Shown here: piece by piece, positions 5,946 through 35,063 of the stretch
Position numbering within the stretch: the stretch's first letter is position 1
How the letters are laid out: each line of letters starts with the position of its first letter
Made by a program: the position numbers and the translations under genes
Source of the DNA: Candidatus Nomurabacteria bacterium
GTDB lineage: Bacteria > Patescibacteriota > Minisyncoccia > Phycocordibacterales > UBA5272
Assembly: GCA_028286645.1 (NCBI GenBank)
Contig: JAQBRF010000004.1
Coordinates: 337,536 to 401,535, forward strand
Direction: 5' to 3'
DNA: 64,000 nucleotides
The notes under the pieces: model-generated
Databases searched by the model: none
What the model was told of the DNA's origin: nothing
What the model saw: the letters and a program-made list of their open reading frames with translations, nothing else

Positions 5946-6048
5946 TTACTGACGGGGCGATTGCCCCGTCAGGTATTTCGGCACGCAGCCGGCGCGCAAT
6001 GGCTAAGCCATGGACGCGCGCGGGCTAGCCGGCGCCGAGCTTCGAGCT

Positions 6049-6234
6049 TTACGTCGCGTTGCCGGGCGAGTCGCCCGGATTGCCACTGTCGACGCCGAGC
6101 GCGGTGTGCTGGCCGGAACTCATCTTCGCATTGGTGCCGCCGTCGTGGCGCACGCCGCCGCTCGAGCTCGCCATCGCATGATTTGCAGAGGTATTCGTTG
6201 CACCGAGCTGTTGGCCGATCGATTTCAATTTCAT
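6049..6234 (-). CDS. small Gly/Ser/Thr-rich peptide, paralog 2 (61 aa)
   Basis: Translation MKLKSIGQQLGATNTSANHAMASSSGGVRHDGGTNAKMSSGQHTALGVDSGNPGDSPGNAT. AAAGGAA RBS lies 7 nt upstream. Confidence 0.55.
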   Translation of the reverse strand: MKLKSIGQQLGATNTSANHAMASSSGGVRHDGGTNAKMSSGQHTALGVDSGNPGDSPGNAT

Positions 6235-6294
6235 CGTAGTTCCTTTCGTTGTTTGGAAGGCGTTTTAGAAGACTGCTGTTGCGGTACTTCTACC

Positions 6295-6363
6295 TTACGC
6301 ACGGCTATTGTCCTTCCGTTGCACCGATCGTGATGAGCCGACGAGTTTTGTTTCTTTACTCAT
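6295..6363 (-). CDS. 22-aa micro-ORF (MSKETKLVGSSRSVQRKDNSRA) with GAGGAA RBS
   Basis: ATG with GAGGAA 5 nt upstream, lying between paralogs 3 and 2. May be a leader peptide or chance. Confidence 0.2.
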   Translation of the reverse strand: MSKETKLVGSSRSVQRKDNSRA

Positions 6364-6472
6364 CGGTTCCTCGTCGCGGCGGAAGGCTACTCGTCGCCGA
6401 GAGTCTTCGCCGCGCCGATCGCGTGCCCGCCGTCGCCGACCTTGGCGATGTTGTACTTCGCGAAATGCCTGC

Positions 6473-6646
6473 TCACTTCGATGCCCTGGTCGCGCCGGCG
6501 CGGTGGAATCCAGTGTTGCCCGCGGCGATCGAGGTGTCGACGAAGTCGTGCTTCTTGCTGCTGTTGTGATTGCGGCTTTTAGCGGCCACTTCGTGGCCCA
6601 TGGAACCGCGCGCCTTGTCCGGCTTTTCGTGCAGACTGCTGGTCAT
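6473..6646 (-). CDS. small Gly/Ser/Thr-rich peptide, paralog 3 (57 aa)
   Basis: Translation MTSSLHEKPDKARGSMGHEVAAKSRNHNSSKKHDFVDTSIAAGNTGFHRAGATRASK. GGAGGT RBS lies 5 nt upstream of the ATG. The ORF-track start at 6667 is a GTG. Confidence 0.5.
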   Translation of the reverse strand: MTSSLHEKPDKARGSMGHEVAAKSRNHNSSKKHDFVDTSIAAGNTGFHRAGATRASK

Positions 6647-6730
6647 GTGCACCTCCGTGTTTGCCACCCTTTCGAGCGGCGGGTTGGAAAGCTTTCGATT
6701 TCTACCTTGCTTAGTAGTTCATCTTGAATC

Positions 6731-6782
6731 CTACCACCGCCTCAAAACTTGTCAAGTGGGTAAAATCCGGTGGTAGATCTAC
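6731..6782 (-). promoter_or_regulatory. putative promoter (-35 TTGACA) embedded in operator-like inverted repeats
   Basis: TACCACCG...CGGTGGTA 8-bp inverted repeat flanks a minus-strand TTGACA. The perfect palindrome GGTAGATCTACC overlaps it. Located upstream of peptide paralog 3. Confidence 0.4.
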
Positions 6783-6824
6783 CTATTTTTGCCCCCTAAT
6801 TATTAACGGAGGGAAAATAAAAAA

Positions 6825-6912
6825 ACCGATTCCCCCTCCCTAATTACAAAACGTGTAATTAGGGAGGGGTCATCAGTTTATGGGTCAGCTCGGGGATCAC
6901 CCCGAGCTGACC
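6825..6912. repeat. two adjacent perfect hairpins (15-bp and 13-bp stems)
   Basis: CCCTCCCTAATTACAaaacgtTGTAATTAGGGAGGG and GGTCAGCTCGGGGatcacCCCCGAGCTGACC. The TAATTA/GGGAGGG motif also occurs at 6793. Confidence 0.6.
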
Positions 6913-7020
6913 TCTTGCGGCTCCCTTGCAGCCTTAGCTGCTTGCCGACCATCTTGAACACCTTAAGTGTGTCAATATCATGATTCTTTGTCAATTACTT
7001 ATCCCCAGCAAAATTGTAGA

Positions 7021-11029: not shown

Positions 11030-11110
11030 CCTGCCCCGGTGGCGAAATTGGCAACAGAACAAATGCGCTAAGTGCGTCTACCAATTTCGTAAGTACATAG
11101 GGAGGTGAGA
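11030..11110 (+). pseudogene. tRNA-Leu 5' fragment plus fold-back (pseudo-tRNA / att remnant)
   Basis: 'tgccccggtggcgaaattggcaacag' copies tRNA positions 1-26. It is followed by 'agtgcgtctaccaatttcg', the inverse of the D-arm. No complete cloverleaf forms. Confidence 0.5.
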
Positions 11111-11137
11111 TAAAAGAGAGTAAAAATTAAATATTTG

Positions 11138-11221
11138 CCCAGGTGGCGAAATTGGTAGACGCACTTGCCTTAGGAGCAAGCGCCGCAAGGCATGAAGGTT
11201 CAAGTCCTTTCCTGGGCACCT
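11138..11221 (+). tRNA. tRNA-Leu (anticodon TAG)
   Basis: Acceptor GCCCAGG/CCTGGGC. Anticodon stem-loop ACTTGC-CTTAGGA-GCAAG. Long variable arm (type II). Confidence 0.85.
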
Positions 11222-12825
11222 AATAATACATTTTGGTCCGCAAGCGTATCAAAAGGTGTATTAAACGTTGATTTGTATACCTTTTTATCTTTTATATAAA
11301 AGTTCAAGAAGATCTTTTTAAGGAAGAAGTCTAGTTCTTCCATATTCTTGATAGAAGCTAGTGTTTTAGGCATATTTTCCATTAGTTCAATGAACTTTTC
11401 AAAAGTTAAAATGCTTACTTTATCATTTTCGTAAATTATCCTAGTTTTCTTCTCGTCTTCTTCTATTAAATTAATATCTCTTTCAGCTTTTTCTAGATCT
11501 CCTCTATAAAACTTCTTAATGTTTTCTGCTTCGTCGCTTAAAAGGAGATTCTTTGTCTTCTCTATCTTTTCTTCGGCTCTAACCTTTTCGGTTCGCAACG
11601 TCAAAAGTTTTTCCTTTGCTTGATTAATACGGTCTGAATGTACTTTTTTTATTTCCTTTGTATAGTGCTCATAACTTCTTTTACTAGAAAATGGTTTCTT
11701 TTCTAAAAGGTGGTATATGTAATCTAAAATTACTTTAGCTCTTATAGATTTTCCATATCTAGGACAATCACGATTATCACACCTATAGTAAAAATATCTT
11801 ATTGTGCCTTTTTTAGTTTTTTTAGCAGTTATTCCTGCTTGCAAAGATTCTCCACATTCGCAAATTACAGCGTCTCTTAAAAGACTTGCTATTATGTCCT
11901 CTCCTTTTCTATAGTTTCGAGCAAGTTTAAGTAAATCTTTATTTCCAGATAGTCTATTAATCTGCATAAATTCTTCTGTGGTTACCATAGGAATAAAATC
12001 GTAATATTCCATTAAGTTAACTACATTTTCTCCATATTGGAGTACCCCAGTATAAACAGGATCTCTTAAAATATATTGGACCCTCTGTTTGTTCATTGTA
12101 AAGAATCTTTCTGACGATTCCGTATTGCTATGAAAATATTTATTACTTATAAGATACTCAGAAATCTGGTCCAAAGTTTTGCCTTCCAATCTCATTTGGA
12201 AGCCTTGCTTCAGTAATACATAATTATTTCCGTCTGGACGTAAATAACCGTTTTTATCTTTTATATAACCGTGTTTAGAGATATTTACATATTTACCTTC
12301 TGCAAGACTTAACCTATTCCCTCTTTTAACATTGACACTTAATTTATCTGAATATTCCTTTGAGAGAGCAAACATAATTCCTAGGAGCAACTTACCGCTT
12401 GCGTCATTACTAAATGTAAAACTTACAAACTTTAAATCTTTGATTATGTCCTTATCAACTAGATCTATAACCTCTCCCGCCTCTTTCATATTTCTTGCTA
12501 GTCTGTCCGGGTGCCACGCGATAACCCCGTCATATTTACTAGCACTTATATCAAGAAGCATTTTAGTAAACTTAGGCCTTATTCCTGGCTCTTTAGCACT
12601 TTCTGCTTCCTCTATTATATCTGCAAACTTAAGTTCATTCTTTCTTGCGAAATCCCTGCATTCCGTGATTTGATCCTCAATGGAACGTATTTGTTTACCG
12701 GTCTCGTCGGTTGACTTTCTTACGTAAATAACATACTTATACTTTTCGGGAGTATATGCCACTTTGTCGTTCTGGGCCGATTTTAGTAACTCCAAAAGTT
12801 CTTGTGGAGAAGTAGGATTAAACAT
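11200..12825 (-). CDS. large serine recombinase (integrase)
   Basis: N-terminal resolvase domain YVIYVRKSTDETGKQIRSIEDQ with the catalytic Ser. 541 aa, with a Cys-containing zinc-ribbon region and a coiled-coil C-terminus. The 3' end overlaps the tRNA-Leu 3' end. Confidence 0.8.
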   Translation of the reverse strand: MFNPTSPQELLELLKSAQNDKVAYTPEKYKYVIYVRKSTDETGKQIRSIEDQITECRDFARKNELKFADIIEEAESAKEPGIRPKFTKMLLDISASKYDGVIAWHPDRLARNMKEAGEVIDLVDKDIIKDLKFVSFTFSNDASGKLLLGIMFALSKEYSDKLSVNVKRGNRLSLAEGKYVNISKHGYIKDKNGYLRPDGNNYVLLKQGFQMRLEGKTLDQISEYLISNKYFHSNTESSERFFTMNKQRVQYILRDPVYTGVLQYGENVVNLMEYYDFIPMVTTEEFMQINRLSGNKDLLKLARNYRKGEDIIASLLRDAVICECGESLQAGITAKKTKKGTIRYFYYRCDNRDCPRYGKSIRAKVILDYIYHLLEKKPFSSKRSYEHYTKEIKKVHSDRINQAKEKLLTLRTEKVRAEEKIEKTKNLLLSDEAENIKKFYRGDLEKAERDINLIEEDEKKTRIIYENDKVSILTFEKFIELMENMPKTLASIKNMEELDFFLKKIFLNFYIKDKKVYKSTFNTPFDTLADQNVLLGAQERT

Positions 12826-13148: not shown

Positions 13149-13560
13149 AACTCAAAGTTAATCATTGCGTTGGCATTACATTGTTCGTTATTAGATTTTT
13201 TGAATATACATTTCATAAGTTATTGCTTGTAAATTAGCTTTTAAGATCTGAATAAATTGGTATGATTTGAGGTCATAATCAAACGAAAAACGGACCTGAA
13301 CTTACTTATCCCGTGAGATAGCTTGTTCAGACCCGTGAATCTGTCTAGCTTTTTATAACTAGCTTTGTTTTCCCTGGACCATATCTTAAGGCTTTTTCAA
13401 GATTAGGGTCGATCAGTAAAACTATTTGATTATCTTAAGTGTAGCTTATATTCATATCTTGTAAATTGCTTATATTTCTTACGAGAGAATAATAAGATAT
13501 ACTTGCATTACAACTAAATATATTAGTGGCCTAACCCCTAAGCAATTAGAGTATGGTCCA

Positions 13561-13700
13561 AATCGCGACAAACATAAAAAACCTATCATTAGGGCGTTTG
13601 TCGCGGTATACCGGGAAACTGGTATACAGGCCTTCGGGCCTTCCTAGTGGTAGGCTTTTTCTGTCTCCACTTAGATTTATAAATTAAACGCGACAAACAA
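13561..13700 (+). promoter_or_regulatory. three copies of 'cgcgacaaac' (two direct, one inverted) up to the start codon
   Basis: aatCGCGACAAACat ... gGCGTTTGTCGCGg ... aaaCGCGACAAACaatttATG. A UUCG-tetraloop hairpin (aggccTTCGggcct) lies in the same region. Confidence 0.4.
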
Positions 13701-14171: not shown

Positions 14172-14948
14172 TTAGATCTTTACGAGAATAAAACCTATTT
14201 TTTCTCTCACGATTCCGTCATACTTACCTTCTACTAAGTTTTCGAATACTGGCCACGGCTCATAATATGTATAGCTAAAGCCATTTGCACCGTGATTAGT
14301 ATTCTGTTTAGTGGTTTCACTTAGATTTGGATACGCCAAAATAAACGCCATTTCTTCAATTACGTACTTAATAGCAATAGGTACTTTGCTGTTAATGTCT
14401 TCTCCTTCTTGGAGGCGATTCTTTAGGACCTTAGCCGTTGTAGTATTTATATCTTTATGAAACTCTAGATTTTCTTCATATAAGGTCATTAGACATTCAT
14501 ACTCTTTTAAATATGTCTCGTCCTTATAAATGTCTACCCAATCTAAGAAAATAACCTTACTCTTATTTTCTGGTTCTTCTATTTTTATTCTCTCTAAAGC
14601 TGCAAGACAATGATTCCTTAATCGATTCCTATCTAATCTTGCTTCTCTTAATACTTTGTCTTCAGAATATCCTTTAGCACGAAAATTATGCTTAGCTGGA
14701 CCGTCGGTAAAGAAAACTGAGACTCTATTTGAGAAGTTGAGTGAAAAACGCAGCATTCTATATATATTTTCTCTATTGTAATATCCATTGTTTAGGCAAA
14801 TTGCTAAAAGTAAATCTTGTTTTCTATTCAGAAACTCCACACCTCTCTTTCTTATAGGTAACCCTTCGTCATTTAGAATAACCACTGCTTGCCAGTTATG
14901 ATTTTCAACTCTCTTATTTAATCCAGCTATTTCATTTTTTAGGTCCAT
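14172..14948 (-). CDS. tRNA-dependent cyclodipeptide synthase (CDPS) homolog
   Basis: LLLAICLNNGYYNRENIYRML aligns gap-free to the CDPS pocket motif (YvmC [21 protein letters not shown]; AlbC GISAGNSYF). RVSVFFTDGPAKHN aligns to SVSVLLAGHEAAN. AIKYVIEEMAFILAYP aligns to the CDPS Y-x-x-x-E motif (AVEYVIAELPFFIGAP). Comparator sequences are from memory. Confidence 0.65.
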   Translation of the reverse strand: MDLKNEIAGLNKRVENHNWQAVVILNDEGLPIRKRGVEFLNRKQDLLLAICLNNGYYNRENIYRMLRFSLNFSNRVSVFFTDGPAKHNFRAKGYSEDKVLREARLDRNRLRNHCLAALERIKIEEPENKSKVIFLDWVDIYKDETYLKEYECLMTLYEENLEFHKDINTTTAKVLKNRLQEGEDINSKVPIAIKYVIEEMAFILAYPNLSETTKQNTNHGANGFSYTYYEPWPVFENLVEGKYDGIVREKIGFILVKI

Positions 14949-14950
14949 AT

Positions 14951-15388
14951 TTATCTTGCCATTACCACTCTTGGTTCTCCGTCCCCAAAGTAATCTTCTT
15001 TTCTCGATTCAATTTTAAATCCTAGAGATTCATAAAGGCTAATTGCTTTAAAGTTATCTGGGTGTGTTACAAGATCTATCCTTTTTACTTCTCCTATTTC
15101 CTTTAAGATATAATCCATAGCTTGCCTTGCTATTCCTTGTCTCTGAAACTCTGGAAGGATTAATATTCCACTTATATAAGCGTGGTCCGGCGATTTCATT
15201 TCATACATTACGTCACCTGCTATCTTACTGTCTTTCTCAATAATATAAACCGGTCCGTCATTTATGGCTTTTATCCATTCGGATTCCTCAAGCATTGCAG
15301 AATAAGTTTTAGATCCTACAATACTTTGCTCTATAGAGATAAGAGTAGGAATATCTTCAATTATTGCTTTTTTATATTTAAGTTCCAT
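14951..15388 (-). CDS. GNAT family N-acetyltransferase
   Basis: Motif A YISGILILPEFQRQGIARQAMDYIL and the AISLYESLGFK tail. 145 aa. Ends 3 nt before the CDPS start. Confidence 0.8.
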   Translation of the reverse strand: MELKYKKAIIEDIPTLISIEQSIVGSKTYSAMLEESEWIKAINDGPVYIIEKDSKIAGDVMYEMKSPDHAYISGILILPEFQRQGIARQAMDYILKEIGEVKRIDLVTHPDNFKAISLYESLGFKIESRKEDYFGDGEPRVVMAR

Positions 15389-15390
15389 AT

Positions 15391-15870
15391 CTAAATTATA
15401 CTCTTATATTTTTTCATAAACTTCTGTCTATCTTGGGGAGTATCAAACCAAAAGATTGTATAGTACTTTTTCTTTCCGCTTCTTATTAATGCTTCGTGTC
15501 TATGGGTGCCGTCTCTTACCGAAAGAATAGGCCAAGGGCGCGGGTTAGCAATTAACGCCGGGACTTCCCACCCTTTTTTTATTTCTTTTACCATAGCATT
15601 CACCCTTTTGTTAAACTTCTTTAAAGATTCTGGATATTCCATTCCTTCTTCTGGGCCACAACAACGCACTAACTCTTTTAAAGGAAAGTTAATTGGCCCC
15701 ACCCAGGAGTGATACCCTTCTTCTTTACGAAGTTTCAGTCCTCTTGCCATATTTTTATTGATTCCTGGACCGTGGAGAAAGGCAAAGACCCATTCGTCTA
15801 GCCTCCCTTTCTTTGTATAGGCTTTGAGTTCTTTGATAGAGAAATCTAACTTTTGTTCTGTTTTTGTCAT
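15391..15870 (-). CDS. ParB/sulfiredoxin-fold domain protein
   Basis: C-terminal ILSVRDGTHRHEALIRSG matches the ParB/Srx DGxHRxxA core. Ends 3 nt before the GNAT start. Confidence 0.45.
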   Translation of the reverse strand: MTKTEQKLDFSIKELKAYTKKGRLDEWVFAFLHGPGINKNMARGLKLRKEEGYHSWVGPINFPLKELVRCCGPEEGMEYPESLKKFNKRVNAMVKEIKKGWEVPALIANPRPWPILSVRDGTHRHEALIRSGKKKYYTIFWFDTPQDRQKFMKKYKSII

Positions 15871-15938
15871 TAAAGAAGTATACCAGTTACGTTTTAACCA
15901 CTTAAAAGGTAATAAATTAAGGGTGTATAATTAGTATT

Positions 15939-16187
15939 ATGACCACTATCAGAGAAGAACGTATTTTAAGGAGAAAGTTCTATGTTTTAGATAAAATTGC
16001 TAAACAGTTGGATCAAGTACCTGGAACGAATATTATATATTACACTCAAGATCCTACAGAGTACTTAATGAACGGCCTCCAATATAATGAGTTAATCCCA
16101 GGACCAGCAGACGAAGTTAAGATTCTAGAACTCTTTAATTCAGAGGATATTCTAAAAATTGAAAGTAATTACGACGAATATGAGTAG
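15939..16187 (+). CDS. small protein, putative antitoxin partner of PIN protein
   Basis: 82 aa. Lies immediately upstream of the PIN gene. A TATAAT sits 9 nt before its ATG. Confidence 0.35.
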   Translation: MTTIREERILRRKFYVLDKIAKQLDQVPGTNIIYYTQDPTEYLMNGLQYNELIPGPADEVKILELFNSEDILKIESNYDEYE

Positions 16188-16246
16188 AAGAGTACTAAGA
16201 TTAAAAATAAATAGAAGTAACTTTGAGTTATTATATAGTGAAATTA

Positions 16247-16788
16247 TGAAGAAGTTGTCCTTCATAGATACTAAAATACGGATTTATATTGATACAAATA
16301 TTTTTGGGAGAGCGATAGACGGTAAAATGGACCAGACAAACACAGAGTCAATTGAACGCATTGTTTCTAAGAAGAATATTAGCCTATATACGTCTGAAAA
16401 AACCAGACAAGAAATTAAAAATAATCCAAACAAGGGCGCGCAATCCTATTTACAATTTATTGTTAATTTAGTTACTGTTATACCGGAAGAACATTTCATA
16501 AAAGAAACCTCTGTAAGTATAGGTGAAGCGACACTAGGTTCTGTAACTATTGGAGGTACAACTACACAAGAGGATAAAACGTTTACACAACTTTCAGTTA
16601 TTTTCCAACAGGATGACGCAGAGCATATATTTCAAGCTATAAAAAGTAACGCACAGTATTTTATTACTCTTGATCAGAAAACGATTATCAACAAAAGAGA
16701 CGAATACAATAAACTTGGTTATCAAACAAGGCTGGTCACCCCTTTAGATCTTGAAAAAATACTATTTGCAATAGAGGATAACAGCTAA
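16247..16788 (+). CDS. PIN-domain protein (VapC-like nuclease with insertion)
   Basis: IYIDTNIFGRAID is a canonical PIN N-terminus. Later acidic residues at DDAEHIFQAI and FITLDQK. Start chosen at MKKLSF. Confidence 0.55.
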
Positions 16789-19570: not shown

Positions 19571-20167
19571 CTACTTCTCTTTTCTTCTGCCGATTAAAAA
19601 ATAAAACACGGTACCGATTAATGCCCCTATTGTATCCATAAGCATATCCTTCTGAGCGTCCCAAATATCTCCTTGAGACCCTAGGACTGCAATTCCTGCG
19701 CCAGGATCCGAACTAACTGCATATTGCCATTCAAATATTTCATAAAATGCAGCCACCGCCGGAATAATCATAAAGCCTGCTAAATATGCGAACCATTTTT
19801 TATTTACCCATCTGTACTTAATGGCAGATTCAATAATAGGATACGCATAAAACCCCACCGTTGCATGAGCTACCCTGTCATACATATTTCTTTCGAAACC
19901 GAAAAAATTATCAAACCAATCAAATGGAACAGCGGCAAAAGTATAATGCCCCCCAATGGTGTGCATAAATATAAGGATACTCATTAATAAATATGCAATA
20001 TTTGAAAATCTTATTTTTGCAATATATAAACCTATGATAACCGCAACAATTAGAAGAACTGTTAAATTCTCCACCCACCAAGTATGCCTATCTATCGGAT
20101 GAATCCCCAAGGCGACAAATTCTACTGCATAAATTAGCAAAAGAAGATGCGGGAAATATTTTTTCAT
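19571..20167 (-). CDS. polytopic membrane protein, paralog A
   Basis: About 45-50% identical to ORF 21442-22071, for example YFPHLLLLIY, FDWFDNFFGF and KKWFA. Confidence 0.6.
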   Translation of the reverse strand: MKKYFPHLLLLIYAVEFVALGIHPIDRHTWWVENLTVLLIVAVIIGLYIAKIRFSNIAYLLMSILIFMHTIGGHYTFAAVPFDWFDNFFGFERNMYDRVAHATVGFYAYPIIESAIKYRWVNKKWFAYLAGFMIIPAVAAFYEIFEWQYAVSSDPGAGIAVLGSQGDIWDAQKDMLMDTIGALIGTVFYFLIGRRKEK

Positions 20168-20692: not shown

Positions 20693-20848
20693 TTTTCCTC
20701 CGCACGTAACGTCTCGGGAGATATCCTGAGACCGTTTGATGCGGACGAATCTGCTCCATCTAACCATTTTAAGTATTTTTAGTCAATCTATTGATATGGG
20801 TGATACTCCGACAAATCTTTTCACTCAATTAAAAATAGATTTTTAATT

Positions 20849-21237
20849 TGTGCCCAGGGTAACATGAGAATTAGAGACTCGGCTACAAGTTCCTCCTCGC
20901 CGCCTCTCGTCGGACTCGCAGCCCGCGGCTCGCGATTTCTAGTGCTTTAGAAATAACGCTCCGCCCTTCGAGTCCCGACGCATAACACGCAGGTGTTATG
21001 CTCCCTGGGCACCAATTAAAAATCCGCTAAGGCGGTATTTTTAATTGGTGCCCAAGGCGAGACTCGGTCACAAAACTTCTCGTCGTAAACTCCTCGATAA
21101 AGTTTCGCAAAGTCGACTTATAATTAGTCGACACCTGTAGACGGCCCATTCGAGTCTCCGCAAGCCAAGCAGTTGGCTTGCTTACTACTGACACTGTGAA
21201 GTAAAAAACAGGAATTCTTTTCCTGTTTTTTACTTCA
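20849..21237 (-). mobile_element. array of miniature elements (family E + family F) with reiterated tRNA-Leu(TAA) 3'-end fragments
   Basis: tRNA 3'-like fragments 'ccgagtct...cctgggcac' at 20849-20881 and 21047-21066. Family E body 20882-20998 (gggcggagcgttat core). Long palindrome 21008-21050. Family F body 21067-21194. Hairpin 21195-21237. Confidence 0.6.
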
Positions 21238-21238
21238 T

Positions 21239-21320
21239 GTGCCCAGGGCGAGACTCGAACTCGCACGCGCTACGCGCTGAGGATTTTAAGTCCTCTATGT
21301 CTACCATTCCATCACCCGGG
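21239..21320 (-). tRNA. tRNA-Leu (anticodon TAA)
   Basis: Revcomp GCCCGGGTGATGGAATGGTAGACATAGAGGACTTAAAATCCTC... with a long variable arm. Anticodon loop CUUAAAA. Confidence 0.85.
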
Positions 21321-21325
21321 CAGGT

Positions 21326-21480
21326 TAATGTAAAACTATTCTAGCACATTCACATTAGTATGTTCAGTACGTCTTCACTTGCGTTCAGTTGCACATTCGC
21401 GCTGCTGCGCTCAGTATTTACTCTATCGCGTCCTTCGCTTGTTAGCTACGGACATCTTCGCAGCCAAGCTGCTCCAACAT
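21326..21480. repeat. right copy of long-range inverted repeat (inverted relative to 7021-7242)
   Basis: The revcomp contains agcagcttggctgcgaagat...agctaac...tactgagc...gcgaatgtg...tactgaacatactaatgtgaatgtgc. Confidence 0.7.
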
Positions 21481-22071
21481 ATTTTTCCTATAAACTGACA
21501 AATAAATAATAACACCTAAAATTCCTCCTAGGAAATCCATTAACATATCTTTTGGCGTATCCCAGAAGTCCCCTTGTGAACCCATAAACCCAGCACTAGC
21601 TACTGGGTCAACATTTATTGCGTTAATCCATTCATATATTTCATAAAATGCAGCGATGGCTGTTATAAACATGACGGCAGTAAAACAAGCAAACCACTTT
21701 TTATTTACCGCCTTAAATCTAATTAATACTTCTGTCATTGGATATGCAAGCAGTCCGATTAAAAAGTGTCCCACTCGATCATAGTTATTTCTATGGAAAC
21801 CAAATAAATTATTAAACCAATTAAAGGGCACATTTTCAAACATATAGTGTGCTCCCACTTGGTGCATGTAAAAAAGCCCGAAAATTATTAAATACGAAAT
21901 GTTTGAAAGACGAACATTTTTGATATAAAAAATAATAACAACAAGCACTAGAGGCAGCACGACTGAATTTTCTATAAACCAGACCTCTCTATTTGTAGGA
22001 TTAATCGCAAGCAAAATAAACTCGATTATATATATTAAAAGTAACAGATGGGGAAAGTATTTTTTAAACAT
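21442..22071 (-). CDS. polytopic membrane protein, paralog B
   Basis: Paralog of 19571-20167. Its C-terminal codons lie inside the inverted-repeat copy. Confidence 0.6.
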   Translation of the reverse strand: MFKKYFPHLLLLIYIIEFILLAINPTNREVWFIENSVVLPLVLVVIIFYIKNVRLSNISYLIIFGLFYMHQVGAHYMFENVPFNWFNNLFGFHRNNYDRVGHFLIGLLAYPMTEVLIRFKAVNKKWFACFTAVMFITAIAAFYEIYEWINAINVDPVASAGFMGSQGDFWDTPKDMLMDFLGGILGVIIYLSVYRKNMLEQLGCEDVRS

Positions 22072-33845: not shown

Positions 33846-34979
33846 ATGACCACCAACATTCCTGCTCCCTCGGGCGCTTTCGTGGGATCGATCGATCGTT
33901 CCGGTTCTCGCGCGGGCGAAGAAAAGGCCATGGTCCTGGCATGGAACGCATTCATGGCGAACATGAAAAAAGACCCGCTGGGCCAAAACATGCGCGGCCG
34001 CATATCGATGTGGGACAATATGGGCACCGACATCCTCCGTCAAGGAGTTTTCTCGGAGATCAAACCGCTCACAAACGGCGAGATCGAAGCCCGGGCGCTC
34101 ACTCCGCTTTACGACAACGTAATGTTCGCGATTCAGATCCTCGACGAGATGGAAGGCGCTCGAAAAGCGCTCGTCATCGACACCGACGGTCTGGAGAACT
34201 ACTCTCAAAAGTGGAAGGATGTCGCTCCAGTCCGGGCGGAAATCGAAAAACGTCGCGAGCAAGGCTGGCTCGTCATCTACCTCGCGAAGAATATAGACGC
34301 GTGGAAGGTGGCGGAGGAGCTCGGCATCCCGAAAGAAAACGCGATGAACTACCGCAATACCGGCGCCGCGGCGCCGCATAGCGGAGGCTTACTGAGCCGT
34401 TTTCGTAACCATGTGGCAGAACACCCCATGGGCTACGCGCTCGGCGCGACTGCTGCGCTCGTCGGCGCTTACATGCTGCTCCGTCCGGGGCAATCGCATG
34501 GCGCACTCGGCTTCACTGATTCGGATCGCAATAACGCGATGGGCGTAGACGGCGTCAGCCAAACCTGGCAGAACGCAGTGGCAGACGATGCGAGCGGGTT
34601 CAGAGAGCCGATCAACCACTTCATGGACCTGCCAACGAATCTACAGGAAGCGTACGTCGGGCTCCCTGAAGATTTCGACCCGCTCCTCGGCTCGATGAAC
34701 GAAGACGGAACTCAGCCGGGTCTCCTCGATCCGAATGAAGATGTCCTCGATGCAACGGATGCCGAAAGCTTGGCTAACGGTGAATATGCCGAGGCTGGTC
34801 AAGGTGAATCCAACGCGACCGAGGACACACCGAGACAAGGAAACGTGTCGGGAAATGATCGCGAAGAACAAGGGGCCGACGCGGACCCTGACCCACTTCC
34901 CGAGGAATCGAACGACTCGGTGAGTATTGACGCAGACTACGGCGGCGGTGGTGGTGGTGGAGACATCGGGGGCGACTGA
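33846..34979 (+). CDS. GC-rich hypothetical protein with acidic tail ending in poly-Gly
   Basis: AGGAGG RBS 9 nt before the ATG (MTTNIPAPSG). C-terminal DADYGGGGGGGDIGGD. Confidence 0.55.
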   Translation: MTTNIPAPSGAFVGSIDRSGSRAGEEKAMVLAWNAFMANMKKDPLGQNMRGRISMWDNMGTDILRQGVFSEIKPLTNGEIEARALTPLYDNVMFAIQILDEMEGARKALVIDTDGLENYSQKWKDVAPVRAEIEKRREQGWLVIYLAKNIDAWKVAEELGIPKENAMNYRNTGAAAPHSGGLLSRFRNHVAEHPMGYALGATAALVGAYMLLRPGQSHGALGFTDSDRNNAMGVDGVSQTWQNAVADDASGFREPINHFMDLPTNLQEAYVGLPEDFDPLLGSMNEDGTQPGLLDPNEDVLDATDAESLANGEYAEAGQGESNATEDTPRQGNVSGNDREEQGADADPDPLPEESNDSVSIDADYGGGGGGGDIGGD

Positions 34980-35063
34980 GAATCGCCTCGACGTCACGAC
35001 GTAAAGCAAGAAAGTCAACCGTCCACAAGGCGTAAGCTGAGTGGGCGGTTTTTTTATTAATAA

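What the first reader, a model, noticed from the sequence alone, without database searches (positions are those of the whole stretch)
14172..15870. Three-gene operon on the integrase island: ParB/Srx-fold protein - GNAT acetyltransferase - tRNA-dependent cyclodipeptide synthase (CDPS) homolog
Three minus-strand ORFs are separated by only 2-3 nt (15391-15870, 14951-15388, 14172-14948). The distal ORF aligns gap-free to the CDPS pocket motif. LLLAICLNNGYYNRENIYRML matches YvmC [21 protein letters not shown] and AlbC GISAGNSYF. It also aligns to the Y-x-x-x-E catalytic motif (AIKYVIEEMAFILAYP), and RVSVFFTDGPAKHN matches SVSVLLAGHEAAN. The comparator sequences are recalled from memory, not looked up. 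CDPSs hijack aminoacyl-tRNAs to make cyclodipeptides and normally sit beside tailoring enzymes. A GNAT plus a ParB/sulfiredoxin-fold protein is not a described tailoring set. The cluster lies on a horizontally acquired island in an organism with minimal biosynthetic capacity. Possible roles are an acetylated cyclodipeptide signal or toxin, or an aa-tRNA-targeting conflict system. GNAT toxins of the AtaT/TacT type also act on aminoacyl-tRNA.
Basis: partly seen in the sequence, partly recalled or inferred. Interest (0 to 1): 0.8.

Follow-up and report, generated by a model that had tools for sequence, protein, structure and literature searches.

The report
Cysteine-type cyclodipeptide synthase in strain-specific operon
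A tiny-genome Candidatus Nomurabacteria bacterium carries a real cyclodipeptide synthase gene whose catalytic serine is naturally a cysteine, a variant shared by a whole overlooked clade, but its two tightly packed neighbour genes (an acetyltransferase and a ParB/sulfiredoxin-fold protein) do not accompany it in any other genome found.

Summary
Three minus-strand genes, separated by 2 nt each, encode a ParB/Srx-fold protein (by predicted structure only), a RimI-like GNAT and a cyclodipeptide synthase (CDPS) homologue. The CDPS scores 65 bits on Pfam and 96 bits on TIGR04539, both above cut-off. Its model has pLDDT 94, and its 48 best PDB matches are all CDPSs.

The catalytic nucleophile (Ser37 in AlbC) is Cys51 here. 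Cys was at this position in every member examined of a mostly Patescibacteria clade. N40, Y178, E182 and Y202 equivalents are kept. The AlbC S37C mutant forms a thioester intermediate and stays partly active. A published family census discarded sequences without the serine, so this clade seems undescribed.

The "three-gene pathway" reading is not supported. In 16 other CDPS-clade loci, 9 loci of ORF1 relatives and 5 of GNAT relatives, the three genes never co-occur as orthologues. Only unrelated GNATs recur, near 2 other CDPSs.

The genes lie in a low-GC stretch beside a large serine recombinase at tRNA-Leu.

Best reading: an active thioester-type CDPS in a recently assembled, strain-specific operon. 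There is no evidence for a toxin or defence role. Product and partners' roles are unknown.

The parts
14172..14948 (-). CDPS-family enzyme, 258 aa, with a Cys nucleophile. Catalytic equivalents in AlbC numbering: C51=S37, N54=N40, Y195=Y178, E199=E182, Y228=Y202, Y229=H203.
   Evidence: Pfam PF16715 scores 65.3 bits (cut-off 27) and TIGR04539 scores 96.4 bits (cut-off 45). The AF2 model has pLDDT 94.2. The top 48 Foldseek PDB hits are all CDPSs, with target-normalised TM up to 0.84. The residue mapping comes from the profile alignment to YvmC, BtCDPS and 6ez3.
14796..14798 (-). TGC codon for Cys51, at the position of the catalytic Ser of canonical CDPSs.
   Evidence: The codon was read directly from the sequence. 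Cys is invariant in 20 of 20 aligned clade members and present in 57 of the sequences examined. The AlbC S37C structure 4q24 scores about 6 bits higher than wild-type AlbC 3oqv against the clade profile: 37.3 against 31.2 bits.
14951..15388 (-). GNAT N-acetyltransferase, 145 aa, RimI-like or N-terminal-acetyltransferase-like. It carries the acetyl-CoA motif QRQGIA.
   Evidence: PF00583 scores 60.9 bits (cut-off 20.7). The rimI equivalog scores 43 bits, below its cut-off of 86. The best PDB relatives are generic GNAT, RimI and Naa enzymes. The search found 422 homologues at E<=1e-10; among the 120 best listed, every organism name given is Patescibacteria/CPR.
15391..15870 (-). ParB/sulfiredoxin-fold protein, 159 aa. 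It has an N-terminal three-helix extension and the conserved motif S-x-RDG(N/T)HRxEAL. It has no DNA-binding HTH domain.
15871..15938 (.). 68-nt divergent intergenic region upstream of the operon. It is the presumed promoter region shared with the plus-strand gene at 15939.
   Evidence: The sequence is shown. The consensus scan found a plus-strand promoter-like site at 15902-15931 and no significant minus-strand site in this gap. Promoter function is inferred only.
11200..12825 (-). Large serine recombinase (integrase) of the island, 541 aa.
   Evidence: It has Resolvase and Recombinase domains plus a Zn_ribbon_recom match below Pfam's cut-off (20.2 bits against 25.3), and it matches PHROG integrase phrog_95 at E 1.5e-56.
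11137..11220 (+). tRNA-Leu(TAG). Its 3' end overlaps the last 21 nt of the recombinase gene, which makes it the likely integration site and left island boundary.
   Evidence: ARAGORN and Rfam tRNA at 58.6 bits.
15939..16788 (+). Divergent pair on the island: an 82-aa ORF overlapping a 209-aa weak PIN-domain protein. It may be a toxin-antitoxin-like pair and is not part of the operon.
   Evidence: PIN_3 has E 0.0013 and TIGR00305 has E 0.0018, both below their curated cut-offs.

Best explanation
ORF 14172-14948 encodes a functional enzyme of the cyclodipeptide synthase family. It belongs to a clade, mostly from Patescibacteria, in which the catalytic serine is replaced by an invariant cysteine. 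By analogy with AlbC and its S37C mutant, the proposed mechanism has four steps. Cys51 attacks the ester carbonyl of a first aminoacyl-tRNA and forms an aminoacyl-thioester enzyme. A second aminoacyl-tRNA binds and donates its aminoacyl group, giving a dipeptidyl-thioester. Glu199 and Tyr195 assist these steps. Tyr228 then helps intramolecular cyclisation, which releases a 2,5-diketopiperazine. In this genome the gene is the last of a tightly coupled, probably co-transcribed trio. The other two genes encode a RimI-like GNAT and a small ParB/Srx-fold protein that is probably a nucleotide-binding or phosphotransfer protein. The trio is a strain-specific juxtaposition within a low-GC variable region beside a large serine recombinase at tRNA-Leu. 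It is not a conserved biosynthetic or defence module. What is shown: gene structure, family, fold, residue conservation and lack of co-conservation. What is inferred: catalysis through a thioester, a cyclodipeptide product, co-transcription, and any role of the two partners.
For: Family membership rests on Pfam and TIGRFAM scores above the curated cut-offs and on 16 PDB CDPS sequence hits. The fold rests on a model with pLDDT 94 whose top 48 Foldseek hits are all CDPSs. The catalytic mapping is C51/N54/Y195/E199/Y228, from alignments to YvmC, BtCDPS, Shae-CDPS and a P. gingivalis CDPS. These residues are invariant across 20 clade members, along with the conserved RNRLRN helix that aligns with YvmC's K/R-rich stretch; a tRNA-binding role for that helix is my inference from AlbC/CDPS knowledge. 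Cys is a clade property, not an error. It occurs in 57 sequences, which form two pure-Cys clades of 47 and 5 leaves in an NJ tree. The chemistry is plausible. AlbC S37C is phenylalanylated through a thioester and keeps partial activity (PMC3105412). The operon layout is real, with 2-nt junctions that are rare in this window. Co-conservation is absent. Seventeen CDPS-clade loci share no orthologous neighbour. ORF1 relatives sit beside methyltransferases, a HAD hydrolase, an AAA kinase, a TraG-like ATPase or a serine recombinase. GNAT relatives at 67-73% identity sit in unrelated contexts. The island setting rests. A second Nomurabacteria CDPS locus (L005) also lies next to a homologous large serine recombinase and a group II intron reverse transcriptase.
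Against: No member of the Cys clade has been assayed. AlbC S37C is less active than the wild type, so efficient cyclodipeptide synthesis by a natural Cys enzyme is unproven. The NYH signature reads N-Y-Y here, and the effect of H203 to Y is unknown. The two unusually tight junctions suggest translational coupling, which usually accompanies a shared function. A GNAT lies directly upstream of the CDPS in one other locus (L020) and within 1.5 kb in another (L002). GNATs are rare in the background sequence examined. A loose CDPS-GNAT functional link therefore cannot be excluded. Most contigs retrieved are short, which limits the co-conservation test.
Confidence: 0.72

Rival explanations
1. The three genes form a dedicated pathway. 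The CDPS makes a cyclodipeptide. The GNAT then acetylates it, for example on a side-chain amine. The ParB/Srx-fold protein, acting as an ATP-dependent kinase like SerK or SbnI, modifies it or supplies a precursor.
For: The 2-nt junctions are rare in this window. A GNAT is directly upstream of the CDPS in L020, and another lies 1.5 kb away in L002. The closest structural relatives of ORF1 include the amino-acid kinases SerK and SbnI.
Against: No other locus holds the trio, or even an orthologous pair. The three CDPS-linked GNATs share only 23-34% identity with each other. The window's GNAT belongs to a large RimI-like family found in housekeeping-type contexts. The papers read here on CDPS families and gene neighbourhoods do not describe GNAT or ParB/Srx proteins as CDPS tailoring enzymes.
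Confidence: 0.13
2. The Cys-clade protein is a CDPS-fold enzyme that uses aminoacyl-tRNA for a different outcome than a diketopiperazine. It might transfer the thioester-bound aminoacyl or dipeptidyl group to another acceptor, or release a linear dipeptide.
For: The nucleophile is changed systematically. Clade-specific invariant motifs flank the active site: CLNNGYY, TDGPA, and YY in place of YH. Thioesters are better acyl donors to external nucleophiles than oxoesters, which is general chemistry. Neighbours include peptidase S51, an asparaginase-like protein and glyoxalase-fold proteins rather than classical DKP tailoring enzymes.
Against: All residues implicated in the CDPS ping-pong and cyclisation steps are retained, including the Y202 equivalent. 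AlbC S37C still makes cyclodipeptide (PMC3105412). No conserved partner that could serve as an acceptor was found.
Confidence: 0.15
3. The trio is a conflict system, either toxin-antitoxin or anti-phage, that targets aminoacyl-tRNA. The GNAT would act as a TacT/AtaT-like toxin and the CDPS would deplete charged tRNA.
For: The genes lie in a low-GC stretch next to an integrase and a PIN-like pair. Both GNAT toxins and CDPSs act on aminoacyl-tRNA, which is established knowledge.
Against: None of the island proteins tested (the trio and four of its neighbours) hits PADLOC. The GNAT's solved relatives are RimI, Naa and polyamine acetyltransferases, with no TacT or AtaT at E<=1e-4. No antitoxin-like small gene is coupled to the GNAT. 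Relatives of all three genes sit in ordinary chromosomal contexts. No relative was found in 2.9 million viral contigs.
Confidence: 0.04
4. The CDPS homologue is a decaying or inactive relic carried as island cargo.
For: It lies in a low-GC, probably mobile region. One relative (L009) is split by a frameshift.
Against: The ORF is intact and full-length. Thirty-two positions are invariant across relatives that share only 36-57% identity with it, and these include all the catalytic positions. The model is high-confidence.
Confidence: 0.03

Closest known systems
NYH-subfamily cyclodipeptide synthases (YvmC and BtCDPS cyclo-Leu-Leu synthases, AlbC; PDB 3oqh, 6ztu, 3oqv)
   Same: They share the Rossmann-like CDPS fold (target-normalised TM 0.76-0.84) and the same family HMMs. 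They also share N40, Y178, E182 and Y202 equivalents, a basic helix alpha-4 and a similar size.
   Different: The nucleophile is Cys rather than Ser. G35 is replaced by Ala or Pro. H203 is replaced by Tyr in most clade members. Sequence identity is only 17-18%. The host lineage is Patescibacteria. No classical tailoring genes such as CDO or P450 lie adjacent.
AlbC S37C engineered variant (PDB 4q24; PMC3105412)
   Same: It has Cys at the nucleophile position. A thioester aminoacyl-enzyme has been demonstrated, and activity is partly retained. It matches the clade profile better than wild-type AlbC does.
   Different: It is a laboratory point mutant of a Ser enzyme. Here Cys is the natural residue, it is invariant, and it is accompanied by co-varying neighbouring residues (A/P-x-C-L-N-N-G-Y-Y).
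[quoted passage not shown]
   Same: It is a CDPS from the same candidate-phyla radiation, and it is the best single-sequence PDB hit (E 1e-6).
   Different: It belongs to the XYP subfamily and has the canonical Ser ('AISLGN'). It is a different clade with a lower structural match (TM 0.6-0.68).
ParB/Srx-fold small proteins: sulfiredoxin, free serine kinases SerK and SbnI, KorB/ParB N-domains, PadC
   Different: There is no Pfam ParBc hit. ORF1 lacks the HTH DNA-binding domain, the GERRxR CTP motif and the sulfiredoxin catalytic Cys motif. It has a unique N-terminal three-helix extension. Its function is unknown.
RimI and Naa-type N-terminal acetyltransferases (GNAT)
   Same: It has the GNAT fold HMMs and the acetyl-CoA motif. 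The best solved relatives are RimI, SSO0209 and Naa20.
   Different: It scores below the rimI equivalog cut-off (43 against 86 bits). Its substrate is unknown.

Membership tests
Cyclodipeptide synthase (CDPS; PF16715 / TIGR04539) | The family HMM score is above the curated cut-off. | tested here: met
   PF16715 scores 65.3 bits against 27. TIGR04539 scores 96.4 bits against 45.
Cyclodipeptide synthase (CDPS; PF16715 / TIGR04539) | Class-I aaRS-like Rossmann fold of CDPSs. | tested here: met
   The AF2 model has pLDDT 94.2. The top 48 Foldseek PDB hits are all CDPSs (E down to 2e-12, TM 0.7-0.84), and TyrRS appears only from rank 49.
Cyclodipeptide synthase (CDPS; PF16715 / TIGR04539) | Catalytic serine nucleophile (AlbC S37). 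The 2018 census used this as an inclusion criterion. | tested here: not met
   The aligned residue is Cys51 (TGC) in the query and in the whole clade. The census removed sequences lacking the serine (PMC5816076).
Cyclodipeptide synthase (CDPS; PF16715 / TIGR04539) | Other catalytic residues: Y178, E182 and Y202 (AlbC numbering). | tested here: met
   Y195, E199 and Y228 align with them and are invariant in the clade.
Cyclodipeptide synthase (CDPS; PF16715 / TIGR04539) | Subfamily signature: NYH (N40, Y202, H203) or XYP. | tested here: inconclusive
   The signature here is N54, Y228, Y229 (N-Y-Y). Some clade members keep N-Y-H. The nearest solved relatives are NYH enzymes.
Cyclodipeptide synthase (CDPS; PF16715 / TIGR04539) | The enzyme uses two aminoacyl-tRNAs and releases a cyclodipeptide. 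| not testable with these tools
   This needs heterologous expression with LC-MS, or an in-vitro assay with aminoacyl-tRNAs.
CDPS biosynthetic gene cluster (CDPS plus dedicated tailoring enzymes) | Tailoring genes are co-conserved with the CDPS across genomes. | tested here: not met
   Seventeen CDPS-clade loci have no orthologous shared neighbour. Only divergent GNATs recur, in 3 loci. ORF1 and GNAT relatives are never next to a CDPS.
GNAT acetyltransferase (PF00583) | HMM score above the cut-off and an acetyl-CoA motif A (Q/R-x-x-G-x-G/A). | tested here: met
   The score is 60.9 bits against 20.7. The motif 'QRQGIA' is visible in the translation.
TacT/AtaT-type GNAT toxins | Sequence similarity to TacT or AtaT, and an adjacent cognate antitoxin. 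| tested here: not met
   No TacT or AtaT appears among the PDB hits at E<=1e-4, and there is no NCBIfam toxin model hit. The flanking genes are ORF1 and the CDPS, and neither is antitoxin-like.
ParB/sulfiredoxin fold | Structural match to the ParB N-domain or Srx core. | tested here: met
ParB partition / ParBc (PF02195) | Pfam ParBc HMM hit, a GERRxR CTP-binding motif and an HTH DNA-binding domain. | tested here: not met
   There is no Pfam hit at E<=1. The motif reads RDG(T/N)HR. The protein is only 159 aa and has no HTH.
Large serine recombinase integrative element | Resolvase, Recombinase and Zn-ribbon domains next to a tRNA gene, with compositional deviation. | tested here: met
   The Zn_ribbon_recom match is below Pfam's cut-off (20.2 bits against 25.3). 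The att sites and the right-hand boundary were not resolved.

The most novel reading that the evidence does not exclude
The Cys-nucleophile CDPS homologues make up an undescribed, largely CPR-restricted branch of tRNA-dependent peptide-bond-forming enzymes. They would work through thioester intermediates. Their products, either cyclodipeptides or acyl-transfer products that Ser-CDPSs cannot make, could mediate the interaction of these episymbionts with their hosts. In this strain the enzyme would be functionally coupled to a GNAT and a ParB/Srx-fold kinase-like protein, giving a new modified product.
Probability: 0.12. Interest if true: 0.8.

Novelty: new variant of a known kind. Interest (0 to 1): 0.5.

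Why it matters
CDPSs divert charged tRNAs from translation into natural-product synthesis, and they are used as compact biocatalysts. All characterised members use a serine nucleophile, and family surveys have filtered on that serine. A natural clade with an invariant cysteine has three implications. First, it shows that evolution has adopted the thioester route, which was previously seen only in an engineered mutant. Second, it offers enzymes with possibly different reactivity or substrate scope. Third, it adds one of the few secondary-metabolism-type functions to Patescibacteria, organisms with very reduced metabolism. The result also corrects the more exciting reading: the three-gene 'module' is a local arrangement, not a conserved system.

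Tried and rejected
1. A conserved three-gene module. I tested this through contexts of 2 CDPS relatives, 7 genome loci and 7 metagenome loci. I also checked 4 ORF1 relatives and 3 GNAT relatives. tblastn cross-checks and all-against-all neighbour clustering completed the test. The module is rejected.

2. A defence or toxin system. PADLOC gave no hits, there is no TacT/AtaT similarity, and no relatives occur in viral contigs. This reading is rejected as unsupported.

3. ORF1 as a ParB partition protein. It has no ParBc HMM hit, no HTH and no CTP motif. This is rejected; only the fold is shared.

4. The Cys as a sequencing error or one-off mutation. It is invariant in 57 sequences examined, so this is rejected.

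5. Tight spacing as mere genome compaction. The median same-strand gap in the window is 95 nt, so this is rejected.

6. Island boundaries from direct repeats. Only short tRNA-3'-end-like repeats were found, and the right-hand end is unresolved.

7. Searches that could not run or gave nothing. Literature searches for a natural Cys-CDPS found nothing. Only open-access text was searched, so absence from the literature is not proven.

8. LOOT RNA in related loci. None was found.
Full report
**Observation**

The junctions are 2 nt each and read TAG-AT-ATG and TAA-AT-ATG. All three are genuine genes with conserved, same-length homologues.

The source is a Candidatus Nomurabacteria (Patescibacteria/CPR) metagenome-assembled genome on a 514-kb contig. 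In a crude gene set for the window, only 3 of 41 same-strand neighbour pairs have gaps of 5 nt or less, and two of those are inside this trio; the median gap is 95 nt. The tight coupling is therefore a real local feature, not just genome compaction.

**The distal gene is a CDPS-family enzyme**

- It scores 65.3 bits on Pfam PF16715 (cut-off 27) and 96.4 bits on TIGR04539 (cut-off 45).
- Sixteen distinct PDB CDPS sequences match it or its clade profile.
- An AlphaFold2 model built from 20 clade members has mean pLDDT 94.2.
- Its 48 best Foldseek matches in the PDB are all CDPS structures, with target-normalised TM up to 0.84. Tyrosyl-tRNA synthetases appear only from rank 49.

The catalytic nucleophile is not serine. 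In every alignment, to ParcuCDPS, BtCDPS, YvmC, S. haemolyticus CDPS and P. gingivalis CDPS, the G-x-S serine (AlbC/YvmC S37) aligns with Cys51, codon TGC at 14796-14798. The engineered AlbC S37C structure (4q24) scores about 6 bits better against the clade profile than wild-type AlbC (3oqv), which pins the register.

The other catalytic positions are retained: N54=N40, Y195=Y178, E199=E182 and Y228=Y202. H203 is Tyr229. All of these, and an RNRLRN stretch that aligns with YvmC's K/R-rich helix, are invariant or nearly so in the clade; a tRNA-binding role for that helix is my inference from what is known of AlbC.

**Size and spread of the Cys clade**

- An exhaustive profile search of 1.84 billion representatives found 646 relatives at E<=1e-3.
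- I examined 180 sequences: the 34 first-round hits plus the new ones among the best 150 representatives. Of these, 57 carry Cys at this position, 96 carry Ser, one carries Trp and 26 do not cover the position.
- A rough neighbour-joining tree places the Cys sequences in two pure clades. One has 47 leaves and includes the query. The other has 5 leaves and includes Candidatus Peribacteraceae, another CPR lineage.
- Named members are mostly Patescibacteria (Nomurabacteria, Doudnabacteria), plus one Bryobacterales contig.

**Literature**

- AlbC S37C is phenylalanylated through a thioester and keeps partial activity, whereas S37A is dead (PMC3105412).
- The 2018 family census removed sequences 'lacking the catalytic serine' (PMC5816076). 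That filter would have excluded this clade.
- Four full-text searches found no description of a natural Cys-CDPS. Only open-access text was searched.
- CDPSs in CPR bacteria are not new in themselves. ParcuCDPS, a Ser enzyme of the XYP subfamily, has been characterised and crystallised.

**The other two genes**

The middle gene is a GNAT. It scores 60.9 bits on PF00583 and carries the acetyl-CoA motif QRQGIA. It belongs to a large RimI-like/Naa-like family; the source names given among its closest relatives are all Patescibacteria/CPR. It has no similarity to the TacT/AtaT toxins.

**Is it a module?**

- ORF1 relatives (51-80% identical) sit next to SAM methyltransferases, a HAD hydrolase and AAA kinase, a TraG-like ATPase or a serine recombinase. 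None sits next to a CDPS or GNAT.
- GNAT relatives (67-73% identical) sit next to a metallophosphatase, a histidine phosphatase or a peptidoglycan-binding protein.
- Clustering all ORFs within 3 kb of the CDPS in 17 loci found only three recurring neighbour families. These are GNATs in 3 loci, a large serine recombinase in 2, and an unknown protein of about 282 aa in 2.
- The three CDPS-linked GNATs share only 23-34% identity with each other, so they are not orthologues.
- One of them (L020) lies directly upstream of its CDPS in a nucleotidyltransferase-like/GNAT/CDPS trio. GNATs were otherwise absent from about 120 kb of background sequence.
- A loose, convergent CDPS-GNAT association therefore remains possible, but it is weakly supported.
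- Other CDPS neighbours are heterogeneous: a methyltransferase, peptidase S51, an asparaginase-like protein, glyoxalase-fold proteins, a WDGH protein and a group II intron reverse transcriptase.

**Setting**

A large serine recombinase (11200-12825) overlaps the 3' end of tRNA-Leu(TAG) (11137-11220). GC is 31-37% from 11 to 18 kb against about 40% around it. The same stretch carries a weak PIN-like pair and a LOOT RNA. The right-hand boundary is unresolved. A second Nomurabacteria CDPS locus (L005) also lies beside a homologous recombinase at 28% identity, E 3e-47. This fits the view that these genes are cargo of variable regions. No relative occurs in viral contigs, and no defence-system model matches.

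**Mechanism (inferred)**

Cys51 attacks the first aminoacyl-tRNA and forms an aminoacyl-thioester. A second aminoacyl-tRNA then yields a dipeptidyl-thioester, and Tyr228-assisted cyclisation releases a diketopiperazine.

I placed the P1 pocket residues by offset from the catalytic anchors: L47, A49, F79, T81, F202, I203 and Y226. They are bulkier than those of AlbC and are conserved (positions from PMC5816076). This hints at a common, possibly small, first substrate, but it is speculation. The product is unknown. The GNAT and the ParB/Srx protein have no demonstrated link to it.

**Verdict**

- The family assignments are confirmed.
- The pathway and conflict-system interpretations are not supported.
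- The notable result is a natural, apparently undescribed Cys-nucleophile CDPS clade centred on CPR bacteria. I rate it a new variant of a known kind and of moderate interest.

Noticed in passing
window 13528-13642 (+): There is a LOOT RNA (Rfam RF03000) match at 65.3 bits (gathering 46.4, E 5e-10). It lies in the low-GC stretch, between a 97-aa ORF and a 143-aa membrane-like ORF, about 530 nt beyond the 3' end of the operon. No LOOT match was found in 15 related loci.
   Followed up: partly
window 20839-21066 and 21239-21321: Three short remnants resemble tRNA-Leu 3' ends followed by A-A-T-T-A-A-A-A-A-T. They lie within about 400 nt of the minus-strand tRNA-Leu(TAA). One plus-strand copy (21004-21019) resembles the 3' end of tRNA-Leu(TAG) at 11211-11226. 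They look like att-site scars of repeated integration at tRNA-Leu genes. They could mark an alternative right-hand end of the island, about 9.8 kb from the left end.
   Followed up: partly
window 11032-11051: A 20-nt copy (95% identical) of the 5' end of tRNA-Leu(TAG) lies 104 nt upstream of the tRNA gene. It may be a tRNA fragment or a duplication.
   Followed up: no
window 19571-20167 (-) and 21442-22071 (-): Two paralogous multi-pass membrane proteins (198 and 209 aa, both containing 'KKYFPHLLLLIY' at the N-terminus) flank the tRNA-Leu(TAA) region. An 82-nt stretch is 78% identical between the two genes.
   Followed up: no
L020 3036-4801: Another Cys-clade CDPS sits last in a tight trio with 1-4 nt gaps. 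The trio is a 158-aa nucleotidyltransferase-like protein (weak Aminoglyc_resit hit), a 160-aa GNAT and the CDPS. The layout parallels the window's, but the partner proteins are not orthologous.
   Followed up: partly
L005 6001-10141: In another Nomurabacteria genome, the Cys-clade CDPS is followed by a group II intron-type reverse transcriptase and then by a large serine recombinase. That recombinase is homologous to the window's (28% identity, E 3e-47).
   Followed up: partly
L009 5989-6785: The CDPS relative is split into two overlapping ORFs in different frames. This is either a frameshift (a pseudogene) or an assembly error.
   Followed up: no
proteins P0064, P0073, P0114, P0130, P0152: A second, small Cys-nucleophile CDPS clade has the motif P-C-P-G-N-G-[YH]-F. 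It includes Candidatus Peribacteraceae (CPR). It suggests that the Ser-to-Cys change arose more than once, or is ancient in CPR.
   Followed up: partly
L004 5004-5849 (-) and L007 5005-5856 (-): A conserved protein of about 282 aa with no Pfam hit is divergently transcribed immediately upstream of the CDPS in two loci. It might be a regulator.
   Followed up: no
window 6001-7000 and 34001-35000: Two 1-kb bins have markedly high GC (56% and 59%) in a genome of about 40% GC. Rfam found no rRNA or other family there.
   Followed up: no
L011 2553-4079; L013 4370-5495; L016 4135-5272: Relatives of the ParB/Srx-fold ORF1 repeatedly abut small-molecule-modifying enzymes: an AAA_18 kinase plus a HAD phosphatase (with 0-1 nt junctions), and SAM methyltransferases. 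This hints that the family acts on small molecules or nucleotides rather than on DNA partition.
   Followed up: partly
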